A stretch of DNA of 64,000 nucleotides from an uncultured Candidatus Saccharibacteria bacterium. GTDB taxonomy: Bacteria > Patescibacteriota > Minisyncoccia > Phycocordibacterales > JAKAEA01. Shown in pieces: positions 3,681 to 60,648 of this stretch. The DNA is taken from NCBI GenBank assembly GCA_964520645.1, contig CAZFND010000002.1, positions 9,424-73,423 on the forward strand. Direction: 5' to 3'. Numbering within the stretch: the first letter of the stretch is position 1; each line of letters starts with the position of its first letter. The notes beneath the pieces are model-generated. The model was not told the DNA's origin. It did no database searches and worked only from the letters and a program-made list of their open reading frames with translations. Made by a program: the position numbers and the translations under genes.

Positions 3681-3713
3681 AAAAAAGACGCTCGCCGGTG
3701 AGGGCGAGCGTCG
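3681..3713 (-). terminator. GC-rich intrinsic terminator (GACGCTCGCC-ggtgag-GGCGAGCGTC followed by T6 on minus strand)
   Basis: Perfect 10 bp stem plus U-run immediately 3' of the lipoprotein ORF stop. Confidence 0.6.
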
Positions 3714-3730
3714 GGGTGAAGAAACAAAGA

Positions 3731-4024
3731 TCAGTAGTTGCTGGACGGGCGGCATTCGGTGCGGTTGGTGTTGGTGTGGCTGGTCTTGTAGTCGCGGACA
3801 TCCACGTTGATGGGATATCCATTGCCACGACCACCTCCGTGCCAGGTCATGTCCGACCCAAAACGAACCGGGCCGTTACTGCGGACATCCCGCACGTAGT
3901 CCACCCTGGCCCCGTCCTTGTGCAGCTCCTCGTGGAACGAGGTCTCATGGTACACACGGCAGCCGGACATGAGGCTCAGCGACGCAACGATCACAACGAG
4001 AAGCGCGAAACGGGAAGTATTCAT
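3731..4024 (-). CDS. small secreted lipoprotein-like protein encoded in a GC-rich (~60%) insert
   Basis: 97 aa; signal peptide ending LMSG-C (lipobox-like) and Gly-rich mature part. Local GC is far above flanks; own terminator present. Confidence 0.45.
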   Translation of the reverse strand: MNTSRFALLVVIVASLSLMSGCRVYHETSFHEELHKDGARVDYVRDVRSNGPVRFGSDMTWHGGGRGNGYPINVDVRDYKTSHTNTNRTECRPSSNY

Positions 4025-4156
4025 AGACAGAGCTCCCTAAAGGGTTGGTTTCGGATCACTATTGAACTGTGTATATTATACCATATCGGTATATATTGTC
4101 AATGGGTGTATGAGTGGTTTGTTTGTGGCTTCAAACCAAGGTATTATTACTGATAT

Positions 4157-7229: not shown

Positions 7230-7233
7230 GCAC

Positions 7234-7289
7234 GTCCCTCTCCTGGTAAGGAGAGGGTGGCCGACTTCTTAGGAGGACGGGTGAGGCGG
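7234..7289. repeat. GC-rich palindromic element copy 1 (inverted orientation): CCCTCTCCTggtaAGGAGAGGG ... GGGTGAGGCGG
   Basis: Near-identical to copies at 7696-7744, 50628-50663 and 56147-56184. Confidence 0.7.
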
Positions 7290-7293
7290 TGAT

Positions 7294-7644
7294 TCATAGA
7301 GAATTCTGAATGACCTCTATTACCTTCTCAAACTCATTTTTAATATCTATATTCTTAAACCTAAGTACCATGTATCCTTGTTCTTCAAAGAACAAAGTTC
7401 TTTGATTGTCATATATTTTTGATTCAGCCTCATCATGAACTCCCCCATCAATTTCGATAATAAGCTTCGCTGCTGCACAATAAAAATCAACAATGTAATA
7501 TCCAATACTGTGCTGCCGCCTGAACTTAACACCTAAATTTCTATTTCGTAACACTTCCCAAAGCTTTTTTTCATAAAAAGTACCATTTCTTCTTAGTTCT
7601 TGTCTTCTTCTTTTTAATTCTCGAATATTGTGAATCTTTTTCAT
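7294..7644 (-). CDS. DUF559 endonuclease-like (Vsr/restriction-endonuclease fold) small protein
   Basis: 116 aa from MKKIHNIRE; motifs LWEVLRNRNLGVKFRRQHSIGYYIVDFYC...LIIEIDGGVHD typical of DUF559. The ORF-track N-terminal extension to 7809 is translation of the flanking repeat. Confidence 0.6.
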   Translation of the reverse strand: MKKIHNIRELKRRRQELRRNGTFYEKKLWEVLRNRNLGVKFRRQHSIGYYIVDFYCAAAKLIIEIDGGVHDEAESKIYDNQRTLFFEEQGYMVLRFKNIDIKNEFEKVIEVIQNSL

Positions 7645-7695
7645 ATCTTTACTGTACAGAAATAGTAATAAAGAGATCATAAAAATATTATAAAG

Positions 7696-7744
7696 CCGCC
7701 TCACCCGTCCTACGGACACCCTCTCCTTACCAGGAGAGGGACGG
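7696..7744. repeat. GC-rich palindromic element copy 2: CCGCCTCACCC-N12-CCCTCTCCTTACCAGGAGAGGG
   Basis: Inverted copy of 7234-7289 flanking the DUF559 gene. Confidence 0.7.
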
Positions 7745-50627: not shown

Positions 50628-50663
50628 CCGCCTCACCCTAGCCCTCTCCTTACCAGGAGAGGG
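50628..50663. repeat. GC-rich palindromic element copy 3 (CCGCCTCACCC-tag-CCCTCTCCTTACCAGGAGAGGG)
   Basis: Same family as 7234-7289/7696-7744/56147-56184. Confidence 0.7.
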
Positions 50664-50683
50664 AAGTCTTAGCTTTTACTGTA

Positions 50684-54574: not shown

Positions 54575-55792
54575 TTATTCTGCGTCTACGTTTGCGTTGA
54601 AGTCTTTCAAATCTTTGAACCCCGCGTCTGCATCTGCAGGTTTTTTACCTTCTCCTTGTGCACTTCCTAGATTTTCTCCTTTTACTGATTGGATATCAAT
54701 TCTCCATCCTGTGAGCTTAGCTGCAAGGCGAACGTTTTGTCCTCCTTTACCAATAGCGAGAGACTGCTGATCTTCTGATACTTGTACTTGAGCTGTTTTT
54801 TCAGCTTCATTTACAGAGACACTTAATACTTTTGCAGGAGAAAGAGCATCTTCGATAAATTGCTTTGGATCTGCTGCCCATTCAATAATATCAATTTTTT
54901 CTCCACCGAGTTCACTCATAACTGTAGATACCCGTACTCCTCGCTGACCTACAAGAGATCCAACAGGATCAATATGAGAGTCAGTTGAATGTACTGCAAT
55001 CTTTGTTCGAGATCCTGCTTCACGAGCAACTGCTTTTATTTCTACAGTTCCAGCTGCAATTTCGGGAGCTTCAGTTTCAAAAAGCTTGATTAAGAATTTT
55101 GGATGAGAACGTGAAAGTCTCAAAAAGATTCCACGAGGAGTTTCTTCTACTCTGTAGAGATATGCTCGAAGTCGTTCACCTTGTCGATATCGTTCACCAG
55201 GAATTTGTTCTTCATAAGGAAGAATTCCACTTGCGCGGCCCATATCAACGAAAATGTTTCCTCGTTCGATTCTCTGAACAGTTCCAGAGACAATTTCACC
55301 TTCTCGCTTTCCGAATTCTCCAAGAACAGAAACTTTTTCTGCTTCACGAATCTTTTGGATAATAACCTGCTTTGCTGTCTGAGAAGCGATGCGGCCATAA
55401 TCATCTTTCATTTCAAGAGGGAAAACTACTTCTTCATCAATCTGAGCGTCCTTTTTAATTTTTCGAGCATCATTTAAGAGAATATGATGTTCTGGGTTGA
55501 AAATAATTTTATCATTCTCATCTTCTTTGATTTCAGGAATTTCGGGGATAGAACCGTCTTCATTTGGCATGATGATGTCTTTTTCATCCACGACAATTTT
55601 GACCTGATAGAATTCAGTCTTACCTGATTCAATATCAAATTTTGCCCGGACAATCTGTCCTTTTTTACCGTAGTCCTTTCGGTATGCGGTAGCGAGGGCA
55701 GCTTCAATAGCTTCAAGAATCTTAGCTTTTGGAATGCCTCGTTCTTCTTCGAGCTGATCGAGCACAGAGTGTATTACTTTTAAGTCAAACAT
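54575..55792 (-). CDS. nusA: transcription termination/antitermination factor NusA
   Basis: N-terminal domain, S1 and two KH domains (IGKGGQNVRLA). Confidence 0.85.
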   Translation of the reverse strand: MFDLKVIHSVLDQLEEERGIPKAKILEAIEAALATAYRKDYGKKGQIVRAKFDIESGKTEFYQVKIVVDEKDIIMPNEDGSIPEIPEIKEDENDKIIFNPEHHILLNDARKIKKDAQIDEEVVFPLEMKDDYGRIASQTAKQVIIQKIREAEKVSVLGEFGKREGEIVSGTVQRIERGNIFVDMGRASGILPYEEQIPGERYRQGERLRAYLYRVEETPRGIFLRLSRSHPKFLIKLFETEAPEIAAGTVEIKAVAREAGSRTKIAVHSTDSHIDPVGSLVGQRGVRVSTVMSELGGEKIDIIEWAADPKQFIEDALSPAKVLSVSVNEAEKTAQVQVSEDQQSLAIGKGGQNVRLAAKLTGWRIDIQSVKGENLGSAQGEGKKPADADAGFKDLKDFNANVDAE

Positions 55793-55899
55793 TATAATTT
55801 TTATTAATTTTTTAAAAAAAATGGCCCGCCGTGAGGCGAACTTGATTCCATAATAATAGGCTGGATTGGCGATTTTGTCAATCTTTAGTATTTAACCAA

Positions 55900-56100
55900 A
55901 AAATAGCCCCCGTCGACACTTGTCGAACGGGGGCAGAGATGTGAGCTTCACGGGATGCGGGAATGTCTGGCTTTGCGTAAGCCCGCGCTTACGATACCTG
56001 CCAGGATCACCAATGCGGTCAGGAACAGTCCCATTGTCTTCACTCCATGAATAAGCCAGCGCGCAACCGTGCGCGCTTACAAAAGAGCTTACGTACTCGA
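55900..56100 (-). ncRNA. candidate GC-rich structured RNA (unknown class) with promoter and intrinsic terminator, upstream of nusA
   Basis: Minus strand: TTGACT-N17-TACATT promoter near 56105-56135; several GC-rich hairpins; ends with GCCCCCGUUCGACA-agug-UCGACGGGGGC + U6 at ~55905-55941. No credible ORF. Confidence 0.3.
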
Positions 56101-56146
56101 GCAATGTAACATTGTATTTGATAATAGTCAAGTTATATAACCATAA

Positions 56147-56184
56147 CGCCTCACCCCTGGCCCCTCTCCTTACCAGGAGAGGGG
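56147..56184. repeat. GC-rich palindromic element copy 4 (CGCCTCACCC-ctgg-CCCCTCTCCTTACCAGGAGAGGGG)
   Basis: Same family as other three copies. Confidence 0.7.
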
Positions 56185-56261
56185 AAGTGGTTTTGTACTT
56201 GTCCCCACAGTCCTACAATCAATAGAAGAGTAAATTTGTTATACTTAAAGAAACTATCTCT

Positions 56262-58010
56262 ATGCATATTGAAGAAACACAGTTACTTAATTTTATTTTA
56301 GACTCGGGGCTTGTTTCTCGCTCAGATGTAGAAGCTGCACGTGATGAGGCTCAGGCGCAGGGAACAAGTGTCGGTAAGCTTCTTGTACAACAAGGAAAGC
56401 TCACTGACAATGAACTTCGTCGTATGCAGGCGTATGTGCTCGGTATCCCTTTTGTAGACTTGAAGGGTCAAAAGCTTGATATAGAAGTACTATCTCTCAT
56501 TCCAGAGCCTATTGCTCGCAATCACACTATTGTTGCCTTTAAAAAGACTGATGTATCTCTTGAGGTTGCTATGCTCGATACCGAAGACCTTTCTGCTATC
56601 GACTTTATCAAAAAGAAGACACGACTCAAGATTTTGCCTCGACTTACTGACAATGAGTCCATGAAAGCTGCACTTGTGCAGTATCAGAAGAGCTTGAAGG
56701 CAGAATTTGGAGATATTATCCAAAAAGAAGTAGGTTCACTTACGACAGCACTCAATAAAGAGGAAGTAAGTTCTGAAACTGATCTTAAAAAGCTCGCTGA
56801 AGATTTGCCTGTTGTGCGAGTGGTGGATACATTGCTTAAGCATGCAATTATTCAAAATGCATCTGATATTCATATCGAGCCAATGGAGACAGAAGTGCTT
56901 GTGCGCTATCGAATAGATGGATTGCTCCATGATGCCATGGTACTTCCTGCAAATGCCGGACAATCTATCACTGCCCGTATCAAAGTGCTTTCCAACTTAA
57001 AGCTTGATGAAAAGCGATTGCCTCAGGATGGACGATTTAAAATAGAATCAAATAATGAAAAAGTATCTTTTCGTGTATCTATTCTCCCAACATACTATGG
57101 AGAAAAGACGGTAATGCGATTGCTCCGAGAAAGTGTTTCTGGCTTTACTCTCGAATTCCTTGGATTTCATGGAACGGGTCTTGAAAAGATTCATGATGCA
57201 ACAAAGCTTGCTACGGGAATGATTCTTACAACAGGTCCTACAGGATCAGGAAAGACTACTACGCTCTATACTGTACTCGATATTCTTAATACACCTGATG
57301 TAAATATTTCTACTATTGAAGATCCTGTTGAATACCAGATGAAACGAATCAATCAGACTCAAGTTAAGCCTGATATTGGATTCACGTTTGCTTCAGGGCT
57401 TCGATCACTCGTACGACAAGATCCGGATATTATTATGGTGGGGGAAATTCGTGATAATGAAACAGCATCTCTTGCAGTAAACGCTGCGCTTACGGGACAC
57501 TTAGTGCTTTCGACATTGCACACCAACTCTGCAGCAGGAGCTATTCCTCGTCTTATTGATATGAAAGTAGAACCATTTCTTATTGTTTCTACGGTGAACG
57601 TAATTATCGGTCAGCGTCTTATTCGAAAACTTGCAGGAGAAAAAGAAGAATATTTTCTTACTCAAGCCGAAATTGCTCAGTTAGGAAAATCAATTGATCT
57701 TGAGAAAGTTCTTACATTCCTTGTTGAAGAGAAAGTAGTAAAGGCGGGAACAACATGGGACAAAGTTCCGTTCTATCGTCCTAAGCCATCATCAGAAACT
57801 GAAGATGGATTTAAGGGACGAGTAGGAATTCATGAAGTGCTCAAAGTATCTCCTTCAATTCGTGAACTTATTATGCAAGGAAAGACTGCTCAGGACATCG
57901 AAGCGCAAGCGCGCAGTGAAGGTATGATGACTATGATAGAAGATGGAATATTTCAGGCAGTACAAGGATTAACAACAATAGAAGAAGTTCTACGAGTCAT
58001 AACAGAATAA
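56262..58010 (+). CDS. pilB: type IV pilus assembly ATPase PilB (GspE family), operon copy
   Basis: GPTGSGKTTT, DPDIIMVGEIRD, LTGHLVLSTLHTN; no tetracysteine motif. Confidence 0.8.
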   Translation: MHIEETQLLNFILDSGLVSRSDVEAARDEAQAQGTSVGKLLVQQGKLTDNELRRMQAYVLGIPFVDLKGQKLDIEVLSLIPEPIARNHTIVAFKKTDVSLEVAMLDTEDLSAIDFIKKKTRLKILPRLTDNESMKAALVQYQKSLKAEFGDIIQKEVGSLTTALNKEEVSSETDLKKLAEDLPVVRVVDTLLKHAIIQNASDIHIEPMETEVLVRYRIDGLLHDAMVLPANAGQSITARIKVLSNLKLDEKRLPQDGRFKIESNNEKVSFRVSILPTYYGEKTVMRLLRESVSGFTLEFLGFHGTGLEKIHDATKLATGMILTTGPTGSGKTTTLYTVLDILNTPDVNISTIEDPVEYQMKRINQTQVKPDIGFTFASGLRSLVRQDPDIIMVGEIRDNETASLAVNAALTGHLVLSTLHTNSAAGAIPRLIDMKVEPFLIVSTVNVIIGQRLIRKLAGEKEEYFLTQAEIAQLGKSIDLEKVLTFLVEEKVVKAGTTWDKVPFYRPKPSSETEDGFKGRVGIHEVLKVSPSIRELIMQGKTAQDIEAQARSEGMMTMIEDGIFQAVQGLTTIEEVLRVITE

Positions 58011-60164: not shown

Positions 60165-60648
60165 TATTCGTAACAACAAAGGATTTTCGTTGGTAGAAAT
60201 GCTCATTTATGTGACATTGCTCGCTACCATTCTTCTTTTAGTCATCAACACCGTTCTTTCATTTAGTTCTTCATATCGACAATTGGCGGCGCTTCGAGCA
60301 GCGGAGCACTCTGGTATTGATGCGATGGAGCGTATTACACGTGATATTCGCCAAGCCAGCAGCGCAGACACTTCTATAGCAGGTGCACTTACGCTAGTTG
60401 CTACATCTAACAGTGTTTCTACAACTACTCGATTCTATGTTCAGAATAATGTCCTAAATGTAGATATAAATGGCACATACTATGGCCCACTTACTACCTC
60501 AAATGCTTCAGTAACAAATATTACGTTTACACTTCTTACGAATTCTACATCTAAGGCTGTAAAAGTAGATATGACCGTGCAAGGAATAAGTGGCACAGTA
60601 ACAAAAACAAAGACGTATCATTCAACAATTGTATTAAAAGGATCATGA
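60154..60648 (+). CDS. minor pilin-like protein
   Basis: Start ATG 60154 gives MAINIRNNKG-FSLVEMLIYVTLLA prepilin motif; overlaps previous gene by 11 nt. Confidence 0.5.
   Translation: MAINIRNNKGFSLVEMLIYVTLLATILLLVINTVLSFSSSYRQLAALRAAEHSGIDAMERITRDIRQASSADTSIAGALTLVATSNSVSTTTRFYVQNNVLNVDINGTYYGPLTTSNASVTNITFTLLTNSTSKAVKVDMTVQGISGTVTKTKTYHSTIVLKGS

What the first reader, a model, noticed from the sequence alone, without database searches (positions are those of the whole stretch)
55890..56140. GC-rich, highly structured ~200 nt transcription unit upstream of nusA
On the minus strand a sigma70-like promoter (TTGACT-N17-TACATT) precedes ~200 nt with several strong GC hairpins (e.g. AGCGCGCA-accg-TGCGCGCT, CGTAAGC-ccg-GCTTACG). 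It ends in a textbook intrinsic terminator (GCCCCCGTTCGACA…TCGACGGGGGC + T6). A second weak hairpin plus T8 follows before the nusA start. No plausible ORF is present. It could be an independent small RNA (6S-like size) or a leader/attenuator of the nusA operon. I could not match it to SRP RNA, tmRNA or RNase P RNA signatures.
Basis: seen in the sequence. Interest (0 to 1): 0.5.

Follow-up and report, generated by a model that had tools for sequence, protein, structure and literature searches.

The report
Orphan small membrane-peptide gene beside nusA

Summary
The described sequence features are real. On the minus strand there is a TTGACT-N17-TGnTACATT promoter, about 200 nt of roughly 55-58% GC RNA in a 38.6% GC genome, and a 12-bp GC-rich terminator followed by U6. 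"No plausible ORF" is wrong. A GGAG sits 8 nt before an ATG that opens a 28-codon ORF, MGLFLTALVILAGIVSAGLRKARHSRIP, with a transmembrane helix and a basic tail. None of 5000 shuffles gave an equivalent SD-led hydrophobic ORF.

The unit is not a nusA leader. nusA has its own consensus promoter plus a 5' hairpin and U-tract downstream of the unit's terminator. That promoter and hairpin are conserved, with compensatory changes, across Paceibacteria relatives. The closest relatives (87-90% NusA identity) have a pilB-nusA spacer of about 185 nt, against 469 nt here, and lack the unit.

There is no Rfam, Pfam, NCBIfam, PHROG or PDB match, and no homologue in any collection searched.

Best reading: a lineage-specific, probably foreign, small membrane-peptide cassette (GC3 0.66 against 0.25 for host genes). 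It resembles type I toxins, but no antitoxin RNA was found. A non-coding sRNA remains a serious rival. Interest is moderate to low without expression data.

The parts
56103..56131 (-). Promoter of the unit: -35 TTGACT (56131-56126), 17-nt spacer, TG (56111-56110), -10 TACATT (56108-56103). The inferred transcription start is about 56097.
   Evidence: consensus scan, 9 of 12 matches plus an extended -10. No expression data.
56051..56092 (-). 5' UTR stem-loop: outer stem GUAAGCU/GGCUUAU enclosing a perfect 8-bp hairpin AGCGCGCA-CGGU-UGCGCGCU (56077-56058).
   Evidence: (I10).
56043..56046 (-). Shine-Dalgarno-like GGAG, 8 nt upstream of the ATG. In the predicted fold it is paired with the 3' end of the ORF (unpaired probability 0.05 or less).
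   Evidence: The host genome otherwise has essentially no SD motifs.
55948..56034 (-). Small ORF of 28 codons plus TGA: MGLFLTALVILAGIVSAGLRKARHSRIP, with a hydrophobic helix (residues 3-19) and a basic C-terminal tail. An in-frame GTG at 56043 would give 31 aa.
   Evidence: ORF list; 0 of 5000 shuffles with SD+ATG and 6 of 5000 with any start gave an ORF of at least 20 aa that was equally hydrophobic. GC3 of 0.66 against 0.24-0.28 in host genes.
55976..55993 (-). Perfect 7-bp hairpin inside the ORF, CGUAAGC-GCGG-GCUUACG. It repeats the GUAAGCGCG sequence of the 5' UTR hairpin.
   Evidence: D4, D6, I7.
55948..55966 (-). The last ORF codons and the stop (CAUUCCCGCAUCCCGUGA). In the predicted fold they pair with the SD and start-codon region (56050-56025) and occlude the ribosome-binding site.
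   Evidence: MFE pair table and base-pair probabilities. Prediction only.
55898..55934 (-). Intrinsic terminator: 12-bp GC-rich stem with one bulged U (55934-55906), then UA and U6 (55903-55898).
   Evidence: (I4, I9).
56146..56184 (+). One copy of a genome-wide bipartite repeat (A/C)CGCCTCACCC-N-CCCTCTCCTTACCAGGAGAGGG, lying 14 nt upstream of the unit's -35. It is context, not part of the transcript.
   Evidence: four copies in the window against 0.02-0.6 expected. Two of them bracket a DUF559 gene at 7294-7643.
55853..55881 (-). The nusA promoter itself, TTGACA-N17-TATTAT (11 of 12 matches), downstream of the unit's terminator.
   Evidence: Conserved in relatives.
55814..55841 (-). Conserved nusA leader hairpin GUUCGCC-UCAC-GGCGGGC plus CA and U8. 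It starts about 5 nt after the inferred nusA transcription start and ends 22 nt before the nusA ATG (55792).
   Evidence: found in 59 of 87 relatives under a strict hairpin-plus-T-run criterion; all 7 pairs show compensatory changes.

Best explanation
The 55897-56131 segment (minus strand) is an autonomous mini-gene specific to this lineage. A sigma70-type promoter drives an mRNA of about 200 nt, and its only sensible product is a 28-residue single-pass membrane peptide (MGLFLTALVILAGIVSAGLRKARHSRIP). A strong intrinsic terminator ends the transcript before the separate nusA promoter.

The cassette was inserted or acquired in the pilB-nusA spacer of this Paceibacteria (Patescibacteria/CPR) genome. 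Its origin is probably a GC-richer, SD-using source. The unit has about 55% GC, GC3 of 0.66 and a GGAG ribosome-binding site. The host has 38.6% GC, GC3 of about 0.25 and essentially no SD motifs.

In the predicted fold, the last codons of the ORF pair with the SD and the AUG. Translation would therefore be intrinsically throttled, as in mRNAs of type I toxins and other small membrane peptides. The peptide has the toxin-like architecture: a transmembrane helix followed by a basic tail.

Shown: the anatomy, the absence from relatives, the atypical composition and the non-randomness of the ORF. Inferred: transcription, translation, foreign origin, RBS occlusion and any toxic or membrane activity.
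For: 1. Coherent anatomy on one strand, in order: promoter, 5' hairpin, GGAG-N8-ATG, 28-codon ORF, stop, a 13-nt gap, then terminator plus U6.
2. The ORF is not a chance product of the composition. Of 5000 dinucleotide shuffles of the transcript, 0 gave an SD+ATG ORF of at least 20 aa with a 17-residue hydrophobicity at or above the observed 2.49. Only 6 did so with any start codon and no SD.
3. The peptide passes the sequence-independent type I toxin filters of Fozo et al. 2010 (PMC2887945): 16-70 aa, at least 10 of 15 hydrophobic residues (it has 12 of 15), a polar or charged C-terminus, and an intergenic location that is longer than in relatives lacking it.
4. It is an insertion. The pilB-nusA spacer is 469 nt here against 182-193 nt in the three closest relatives (87-90% NusA identity), which align on both sides of the unit. 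The unit has no blastn, nhmmer or tblastn match in 88 related nusA loci.
5. Composition looks foreign. The window holds a second GC-rich orphan cassette of the same style: a 97-aa lipoprotein gene at 3731-4024(-), with GGGAG 8 nt before its ATG and a GC-rich terminator plus T7.
6. A relative (L025, 75% NusA identity) carries a non-homologous 49-aa transmembrane protein gene, with an AGGAGG SD and its own promoter and terminator, at the same position upstream of the nusA promoter. Small membrane-protein cassettes therefore do occupy this site.
7. The SD and AUG have unpaired probabilities of 0.08 or less in the ensemble.
Against: - No homologue of the peptide or of the DNA was found anywhere, so there is no test of purifying selection on the ORF.
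- No gene caller annotated the ORF.
- The host genome makes almost no use of SD sequences, so the GGAG could be a structural nucleotide rather than a ribosome-binding site.
- High GC in an AT-rich genome is also the classic signature of a structural RNA.
- The predicted mRNA body is not significantly more stable than shuffles (z = -1.55), so the RBS-occlusion helix is only a prediction.
- For the toxin reading specifically, no convincing antisense promoter or terminator was found, the unit is single-copy, and it matches no known toxin family.
Confidence: 0.5

Rival explanations
1. A lineage-specific non-coding small RNA. The GC-rich hairpins would be the functional part and the 28-codon ORF would be incidental or vestigial.
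For: - A GC island in an AT-rich genome with its own promoter and terminator.
- Two perfect 7-8-bp hairpins and repeated GUAAGCGCG/GCUUAC segments that allow alternative pairings.
- The host rarely uses SD sequences.
- No gene caller called the ORF.
Against: - No Rfam hit, even at E <= 10.
- The body without the terminator is not significantly more stable than shuffles (z = -1.55).
- The opposite strand folds at least as well (z = -2.28 for the body and -4.7 for the whole), so the stability is largely compositional.
- An SD-led transmembrane-like ORF arose in 0 of 5000 shuffles.
- The unit is absent from all relatives, so it is not a conserved housekeeping RNA.
Confidence: 0.28
2. A complete type I toxin-antitoxin module. 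The peptide would be a membrane toxin, and an antisense RNA from the + strand (for example from TTGTCA-N18-AAAAAT at 55875-55904, ending at the 56161-56184 hairpin plus GGUUUUG) would be the antitoxin. This is a more specific version of the best explanation.
For: - The peptide's architecture and size fit.
- The RBS is occluded in the predicted fold.
- The locus shows a presence/absence polymorphism like that of zorO.
- A + strand terminator-like hairpin lies just beyond the 5' end of the mRNA.
- The + strand RNA folds with a 13-bp end-closing helix that uses three G-U pairs and would be weaker on the minus strand.
Against: - The only + strand promoter-like site facing into the unit has a poor -10 (AAAAAT), which is simply the A-run of the terminator.
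- No + strand terminator lies within the unit.
- There is no tandem duplication.
- No Hok, Ldr, Fst, TisB, Ibs or other Pfam/NCBIfam family matches.
Confidence: 0.15
3. An inert scrap of foreign or decayed DNA, such as a remnant of a gene or mobile element, with fortuitous promoter-like and terminator-like sequences.
For: - It is an orphan, single-copy and has atypical composition.
- It sits next to a repeat family that elsewhere brackets a DUF559 endonuclease gene.
- Promoter-like hexamers are no more frequent than chance in this AT-rich spacer.
Against: - No frame has any protein homologue. The 79-aa frame spanning the whole unit found nothing.
- There are no terminal inverted repeats.
- The flanking 13-nt direct repeats are not significant: 357 of 1000 shuffles reach the same alignment score.
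- Promoter, SD, ORF and terminator occur in the correct order and spacing on one strand.
Confidence: 0.12
4. A leader or attenuator of the nusA operon.
For: It lies upstream of nusA on the same strand.
Against: - A strong terminator and then an 11-of-12 consensus promoter separate it from nusA.
- Relatives keep the nusA promoter and leader hairpin but lack the unit.
Confidence: 0.03

Closest known systems
Chromosomal type I toxins with a transmembrane helix and charged tail (Fst/Ldr superfamily, PepA1/SprA1, ZorO, TisB). Search criteria are those of Fozo et al. 2010, PMC2887945.
   Same: - A peptide of about 30 aa with one transmembrane helix and a basic C-terminus.
- A free-standing intergenic cassette with its own promoter and terminator.
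- An mRNA predicted to hide its own ribosome-binding site.
- Present in one lineage and absent from close relatives with a shorter spacer, as with zorO in O157 against K-12.
   Different: - No sequence similarity to any toxin family.
- No identifiable antisense or trans antitoxin RNA.
- Not tandemly duplicated.
- Lacks the conserved Trp of Fst/Ldr.
- Toxicity is untested.
- The host is a CPR bacterium, in which I know of no described type I system (my own knowledge; the paper search returned none).
Non-toxic small regulatory membrane proteins of bacteria, such as AcrZ, MgtS, KdpF and CydX (recalled from general knowledge, not tested here).
   Same: Size, a single transmembrane helix and an unannotated short ORF.
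   Different: Those proteins are usually encoded next to or within the operon of the complex they modulate, and they are conserved across relatives. This ORF is an orphan with foreign composition.
NusA-responsive leader terminators of nusA operons, as in the B. subtilis rimP-nusA leader (Mondal et al. 2016, recalled and cited in PMC8060035) and the E. coli metY-nusA leader terminators.
   Same: This applies to the second hairpin (55841-55814), not to the GC-rich unit. It is an intrinsic-terminator-like hairpin plus U-tract between the promoter and nusA, conserved across the class.
   Different: Here the hairpin begins only about 5 nt after the inferred start site. NusA dependence is untested. 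The element has no Rfam family.
6S RNA, SRP RNA, RNase P RNA and tmRNA.
   Same: Comparable size to 6S RNA and a GC-rich stable RNA appearance.
   Different: - No covariance-model match, even at E <= 10.
- No rod-with-central-bubble fold.
- Absent from relatives.

Membership tests
Type I toxin-antitoxin system | Short ORF (under 70 aa) with a predicted transmembrane segment, defined as at least 10 of 15 residues from I, V, L, F, C, M, A. | tested here: met
   The ORF is 28 aa. The stretch LFLTALVILAGIVSA has 12 of 15 hydrophobic residues (criterion from PMC2887945).
Type I toxin-antitoxin system | Polar or charged C-terminal cluster. | tested here: met
   The tail is LRKARHSRIP, with 4 Arg/Lys and 1 His.
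Type I toxin-antitoxin system | An antitoxin sRNA that base-pairs with the toxin mRNA, either cis-antisense or encoded nearby. | tested here: inconclusive
   The only + strand candidate is TTGTCA-N18-AAAAAT at 55875-55904, which has a weak -10. The only + strand terminator-like site is at 56161-56194. No RNA data are available.
Type I toxin-antitoxin system | Sequence membership in a known toxin family (Hok/Gef, Ldr, Fst, TisB, Ibs, ShoB, TxpA and others). | tested here: not met
   No Pfam or NCBIfam hit at E <= 10. There were 0 hits in 1.84 billion representative proteins.
Type I toxin-antitoxin system | Growth arrest or membrane damage on overexpression. | not testable with these tools
   This needs an induction experiment.
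Type I toxin-antitoxin system | Toxin mRNA folded so that the SD and start codon are sequestered. | tested here: inconclusive
   The MFE and ensemble pair the SD and AUG with 55966-55948. However, the stability of the body is within the range of shuffles (z = -1.55), and no covariation test is possible.
6S RNA or other housekeeping RNAs (SRP, RNase P, tmRNA) | Match to the family covariance model, and conservation in related genomes. | tested here: not met
   Rfam at gathering threshold and at E <= 10 gave no relevant hit. ARAGORN found no tmRNA. The unit is absent from 88 related loci.
nusA operon leader or attenuator | Located between the nusA promoter and nusA, and conserved with nusA. | tested here: not met
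   The unit lies upstream of the conserved nusA promoter and is missing in relatives. The 55841-55814 hairpin, by contrast, meets both criteria.
MITE, REP or IS-derived element | Terminal inverted repeats or target-site duplication, and multiple copies. | tested here: not met
   The unit is single-copy in the window and has no terminal inverted repeats. The flanking 13-nt direct repeat is not significant. The adjacent 39-nt repeat at 56146-56184 is multi-copy, but it is a separate element.

The most novel reading that the evidence does not exclude
The cassette is a horizontally acquired type I-toxin-like membrane-peptide module in a CPR/Patescibacteria genome, which would be the first of its kind there. 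In these reduced, largely SD-less and leaderless genomes, the pilB-nusA spacer next to a DUF559-associated repeat would act as a landing pad that repeatedly captures small membrane-protein cassettes. Supporting observations are the non-homologous 49-aa cassette in L025 and the TrmB-family and 284-aa insertions at the same spacer in L086, L087 and L089.
Probability: 0.15. Interest if true: 0.55.

Novelty: new member of a known kind. Interest (0 to 1): 0.35.

Why it matters
If the peptide is made, it adds an unannotated, apparently foreign membrane peptide to a CPR genome. These organisms have tiny gene sets, and small proteins and toxin-antitoxin biology in them are almost unexplored. It also shows that 'GC-rich island means structural RNA' can mislead in AT-rich genomes when small foreign coding cassettes are present.

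The by-product may matter more generally. A conserved promoter-proximal terminator hairpin in the nusA leader across Paceibacteria is a testable candidate for NusA autoregulation in a lineage with no genetics.

Without expression data the unit itself remains a single orphan locus, so its immediate importance is modest.

Tried and rejected
- Rfam at gathering threshold over the whole window, and at E <= 10 over 55750-56300, gave only chance-level hits such as snoRNAs.
- ARAGORN found no tmRNA.
- Pfam, NCBIfam, PHROGs and PDB sequence searches with the 28-aa and 31-aa peptides found nothing.
- An exact look-up of five candidate small ORFs in the 15-billion-protein collection found none had been called as a gene.
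- The search for homologous proteins and the search for related loci refuse queries under 40 aa.
- phmmer of the 31-aa form against 1.84 billion representatives gave 0 hits.
- A codon-class degenerate pattern for 21 codons of the ORF gave 0 hits in viral contigs and 0 in JGI metagenomes.
- blastn and tblastn against plasmids and phages gave only chance matches of about 25-40 nt.
- The 79-aa frame spanning the unit, tested as a possible decayed gene, has no homologue and no Pfam hit.
- blastn, nhmmer and tblastn of the unit against 89 nusA loci and 13 repeat-bearing metagenome loci matched nothing except the same-sample Logan contig L081.
- The flanking 13-nt direct repeats, considered as a target-site duplication, are not significant.
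- I considered a fragment of a pilin N-terminal helix, because the type IV pilus genes are next door. The resemblance is only weak and non-significant: 52% over 21 aa at E = 0.13 in L053, and 37% over 24 aa at E = 1.1 with the ORF at 60645. I set this aside.
- A translation-coupled attenuator acting on the unit's own terminator is unlikely. The stop codon is 13 nt before the stem, so a terminating ribosome would barely reach it.

Full report
**Setting.** The window has 38.6% GC. It comes from a Patescibacteria (CPR) genome of the Parcubacteria/Paceibacteria group. NusA (54575-55792, minus strand) is 63-79% identical to NusA of Taylorbacteria-, Nomurabacteria- and Kaiserbacteria-like MAGs in the species-representative genomes, and at most 90% identical to anything in the 15-billion-protein collection. 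The finding lies in the 469-nt spacer between nusA (-) and a divergent pilB/T2SSE ATPase gene (56262-58010, +; Pfam T2SSE and MshEN). That gene heads a type IV pilus cluster.

**Checking the observation.** All the quoted motifs exist on the minus strand.
- Promoter: TTGACT (56131-56126), a 17-nt spacer, then TG-n-TACATT (-10 at 56108-56103).
- An 8-bp perfect hairpin AGCGCGCA/UGCGCGCU (56077-56058), nested in an outer GUAAGCU/GGCUUAU stem.
- A 7-bp hairpin CGUAAGC-GCGG-GCUUACG (55993-55976).
- A 12-bp GC-rich terminator with one bulged U (55934-55906), followed by UA and U6.
- A second promoter, a second hairpin and T8 before the nusA ATG.

The region is the second-highest GC peak of the 64 kb window, about 3.9 sd above the mean. 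The full 203-nt RNA folds at -80.7 kcal/mol with z = -3.3. Without the terminator the body has z = -1.55, with 17 of 200 shuffles folding as well. The reverse strand folds at least as well. So 'highly structured' largely reflects GC content and the terminator. No Rfam family matches, at gathering threshold or at E <= 10.

The centre of the transcript reads GGAG-N8-ATG and then 28 codons: MGLFLTALVILAGIVSAGLRKARHSRIP (56034-55948). That is an 18-residue uncharged hydrophobic helix followed by a basic tail.
- In 5000 dinucleotide shuffles of the transcript, none produced an SD+ATG ORF of at least 20 aa with equal hydrophobicity. Only 6 did so with any start codon and no SD.
- The peptide passes the sequence-independent filters used to discover type I toxins (PMC2887945).
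- In the predicted ensemble, the SD and AUG pair with the last codons of the ORF (55966-55948), with unpaired probabilities of 0.08 or less. The mRNA would mask its own ribosome-binding site. This is a prediction only.

**It is not part of the nusA leader.** Directly after the unit's terminator comes an 11-of-12 consensus promoter, TTGACA-N17-TATTAT (55881-55853). It is followed after about 11 nt by the hairpin GUUCGCC-UCAC-GGCGGGC plus U8, and then by nusA. This promoter-plus-hairpin module is conserved.
- It aligns base-for-base in the closest relatives: L082 at 90%, L083 at 88%, and L084/L085 at 87% NusA identity.
- A strict hairpin-plus-T-run search found it in 59 of 87 nusA loci. Stems include GUUCGCC/GGCGAAC, GUCCGUU/AACGGAC, AGUCCUG/CAGGGCU and GACUGCCC/GGGCGGUC.
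- All 7 consensus pairs show double (compensatory) changes. The sequences were selected for having a hairpin, so the paired fraction is biased.

In those closest relatives the pilB-nusA spacer is only 182-193 nt, and the GC-rich unit is simply absent. The unit has no blastn, nhmmer or tblastn match in any of the related loci. The only hit is a Logan contig from the same sample, which independently confirms the junction between the nusA promoter and the terminator.

**Origin.**
- The ORF has GC3 of 0.66, against 0.24-0.28 for nusA, pilB, pilC and another host gene.
- None of about 45 long ORFs in the window has GGAG, GAGG or AGGA upstream, and many look leaderless. A GGAG-led ORF is therefore foreign in style.
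- The highest GC peak of the window (3690-4030) is a second orphan cassette of the same style: a 97-aa lipoprotein gene with GGGAG 8 nt before the ATG and a GC-rich terminator plus T7.
- The pilB-nusA spacer is variable in relatives. L087 and L089 carry a TrmB-family gene there, L086 carries a 284-aa ORF, and L025 carries a non-homologous 49-aa transmembrane protein gene with an AGGAGG SD and its own promoter and terminator, just upstream of the nusA promoter.
- Fourteen nt upstream of the unit's -35 lies one of four copies of a bipartite repeat, CCGCCTCACCC-N-CCCTCTCCTTACCAGGAGAGGG. Elsewhere in the window two inverted copies bracket a DUF559 endonuclease gene inserted between ruvB and yebC. 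I found no terminal inverted repeats, and no significant target duplication around the unit itself.

**Searches for relatives all failed.**
- Pfam, NCBIfam, PHROGs and PDB.
- phmmer against 1.84 billion representative proteins.
- A codon-class pattern in viral and JGI metagenome contigs.
- Plasmid and phage blastn and tblastn.
- The 79-aa frame that spans the unit.

There is therefore no evidence for a decayed larger gene. It also means I cannot test coding against RNA by substitution pattern.

**Interpretation.** The most economical reading (about 0.5) is a lineage-specific, probably horizontally acquired cassette expressing a 28-aa membrane peptide from a self-occluding mRNA.
- It works like, and looks like, a type I toxin gene. 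Two defining features of that family are not established: no credible antisense promoter or terminator was found, and there is no family homology. I therefore do not file it as a member. The full toxin-antitoxin reading gets about 0.15.
- A lineage-specific non-coding sRNA is the main rival (about 0.28). A GC island with a promoter and terminator is what such RNAs look like in AT-rich genomes, and the host hardly uses SD motifs. Against it are the ORF statistics, the non-exceptional fold stability and the lack of conservation.
- Inert foreign DNA (about 0.12) and a nusA leader (about 0.03) are less likely.

**Verdict.** Interest is 0.35. The conserved nusA leader terminator and the DUF559-associated repeat family are side observations worth their own follow-up.

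Noticed in passing
window 55814-55881 (-); also L002-L089, roughly 20-220 nt upstream of each nusA start: A conserved nusA leader across Paceibacteria. It consists of TTGACA-N17-TAnnnT, then 7-12 nt, then the hairpin AGUUCGCC-loop-GGCGRRCU and U6-8. The stem shows compensatory changes. It is a candidate NusA-autoregulated promoter-proximal terminator and has no Rfam family.
   Followed up: partly
window 7233-7289 (-), 7696-7741 (+), 50628-50664 (+), 56146-56184 (+): Four copies of a bipartite repeat, CCGCCTCACCC-N(2-22)-CCCTCTCCTTACCAGGAGAGGG, against fewer than 1 expected. Three of the four have the 'head' facing a promoter about 14 nt away. Translated, it gives the 'GEGPGVR'-type pseudo-peptide often seen in spurious ORFs.
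   Followed up: partly
window 7233-7741; L082 6790-7214: A DUF559 (Vsr-fold endonuclease) gene at 7294-7643(-) is bracketed by two inverted copies of the repeat and sits between ruvB and yebC. In the closest relative, a DUF559 gene is preceded by a covarying version of the same hairpin (CCCCTCCC...GGGAGGGG) plus GGGGTGAGAAC. This suggests a DUF559-associated, possibly mobile, element.
   Followed up: partly
L090-L102 (JGI metagenome contigs): The exact 20-mer CCTCTCCTTACCAGGAGAGG occurs in 13 metagenome contigs with GC from 0.38 to 0.69. It often has a CCTCACCCC head or its inverse nearby. The repeat family therefore spans very different genomes. None of these loci encodes DUF559 within the stretch held.
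   Followed up: partly
window 3690-4030 (-): The highest GC island of the window (0.625). It is an orphan 97-aa lipoprotein gene at 3731-4024 (signal peptide plus LMSGC lipobox), with GGGAG 8 nt before the ATG and the terminator GACGCUCGCC-CUCACC-GGCGAGCGUC plus U7. It has no homologue in the protein collection.
   Followed up: partly
whole window: The genome makes essentially no use of Shine-Dalgarno motifs (0 of about 45 long ORFs). Many genes have a -10-like box about 7 nt before the ATG, which suggests widespread leaderless mRNAs.
   Followed up: partly
L025 2620-2870: A relative (75% NusA identity) carries a free-standing 49-aa transmembrane protein gene (MRRHETGLVLIFVCSCVLTGIFATIDYYAKRGRAERQTLSCYYDNGRCK) with an AGGAGG SD and its own promoter and terminator. 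It sits at the same place upstream of the nusA promoter and is not homologous to the window's peptide.
   Followed up: partly
L086 1991-2845; L087 115-879; L089 1651-2415; L003 2490-2770; L024 2600-2770: The pilB-nusA spacer is a variable site in this clade. Different relatives carry a TrmB-family regulator, a 284-aa ORF, or other GC-rich terminator-ended segments there.
   Followed up: no
L076 2850-2900: A Nomurabacteria-like relative has a variant of the repeat (CCCCTCTCCTTACTAAGGGGAGGGG followed by GGTGAGTGGGG) directly upstream of its nusA promoter. Its orientation relative to nusA is the same as in the window.
   Followed up: no
window 55936 / L081: The independent Logan assembly of the same sample breaks its contig inside the unit's terminator hairpin. 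This could reflect hairpin-related assembly trouble or a presence/absence polymorphism of the unit in the population.
   Followed up: no
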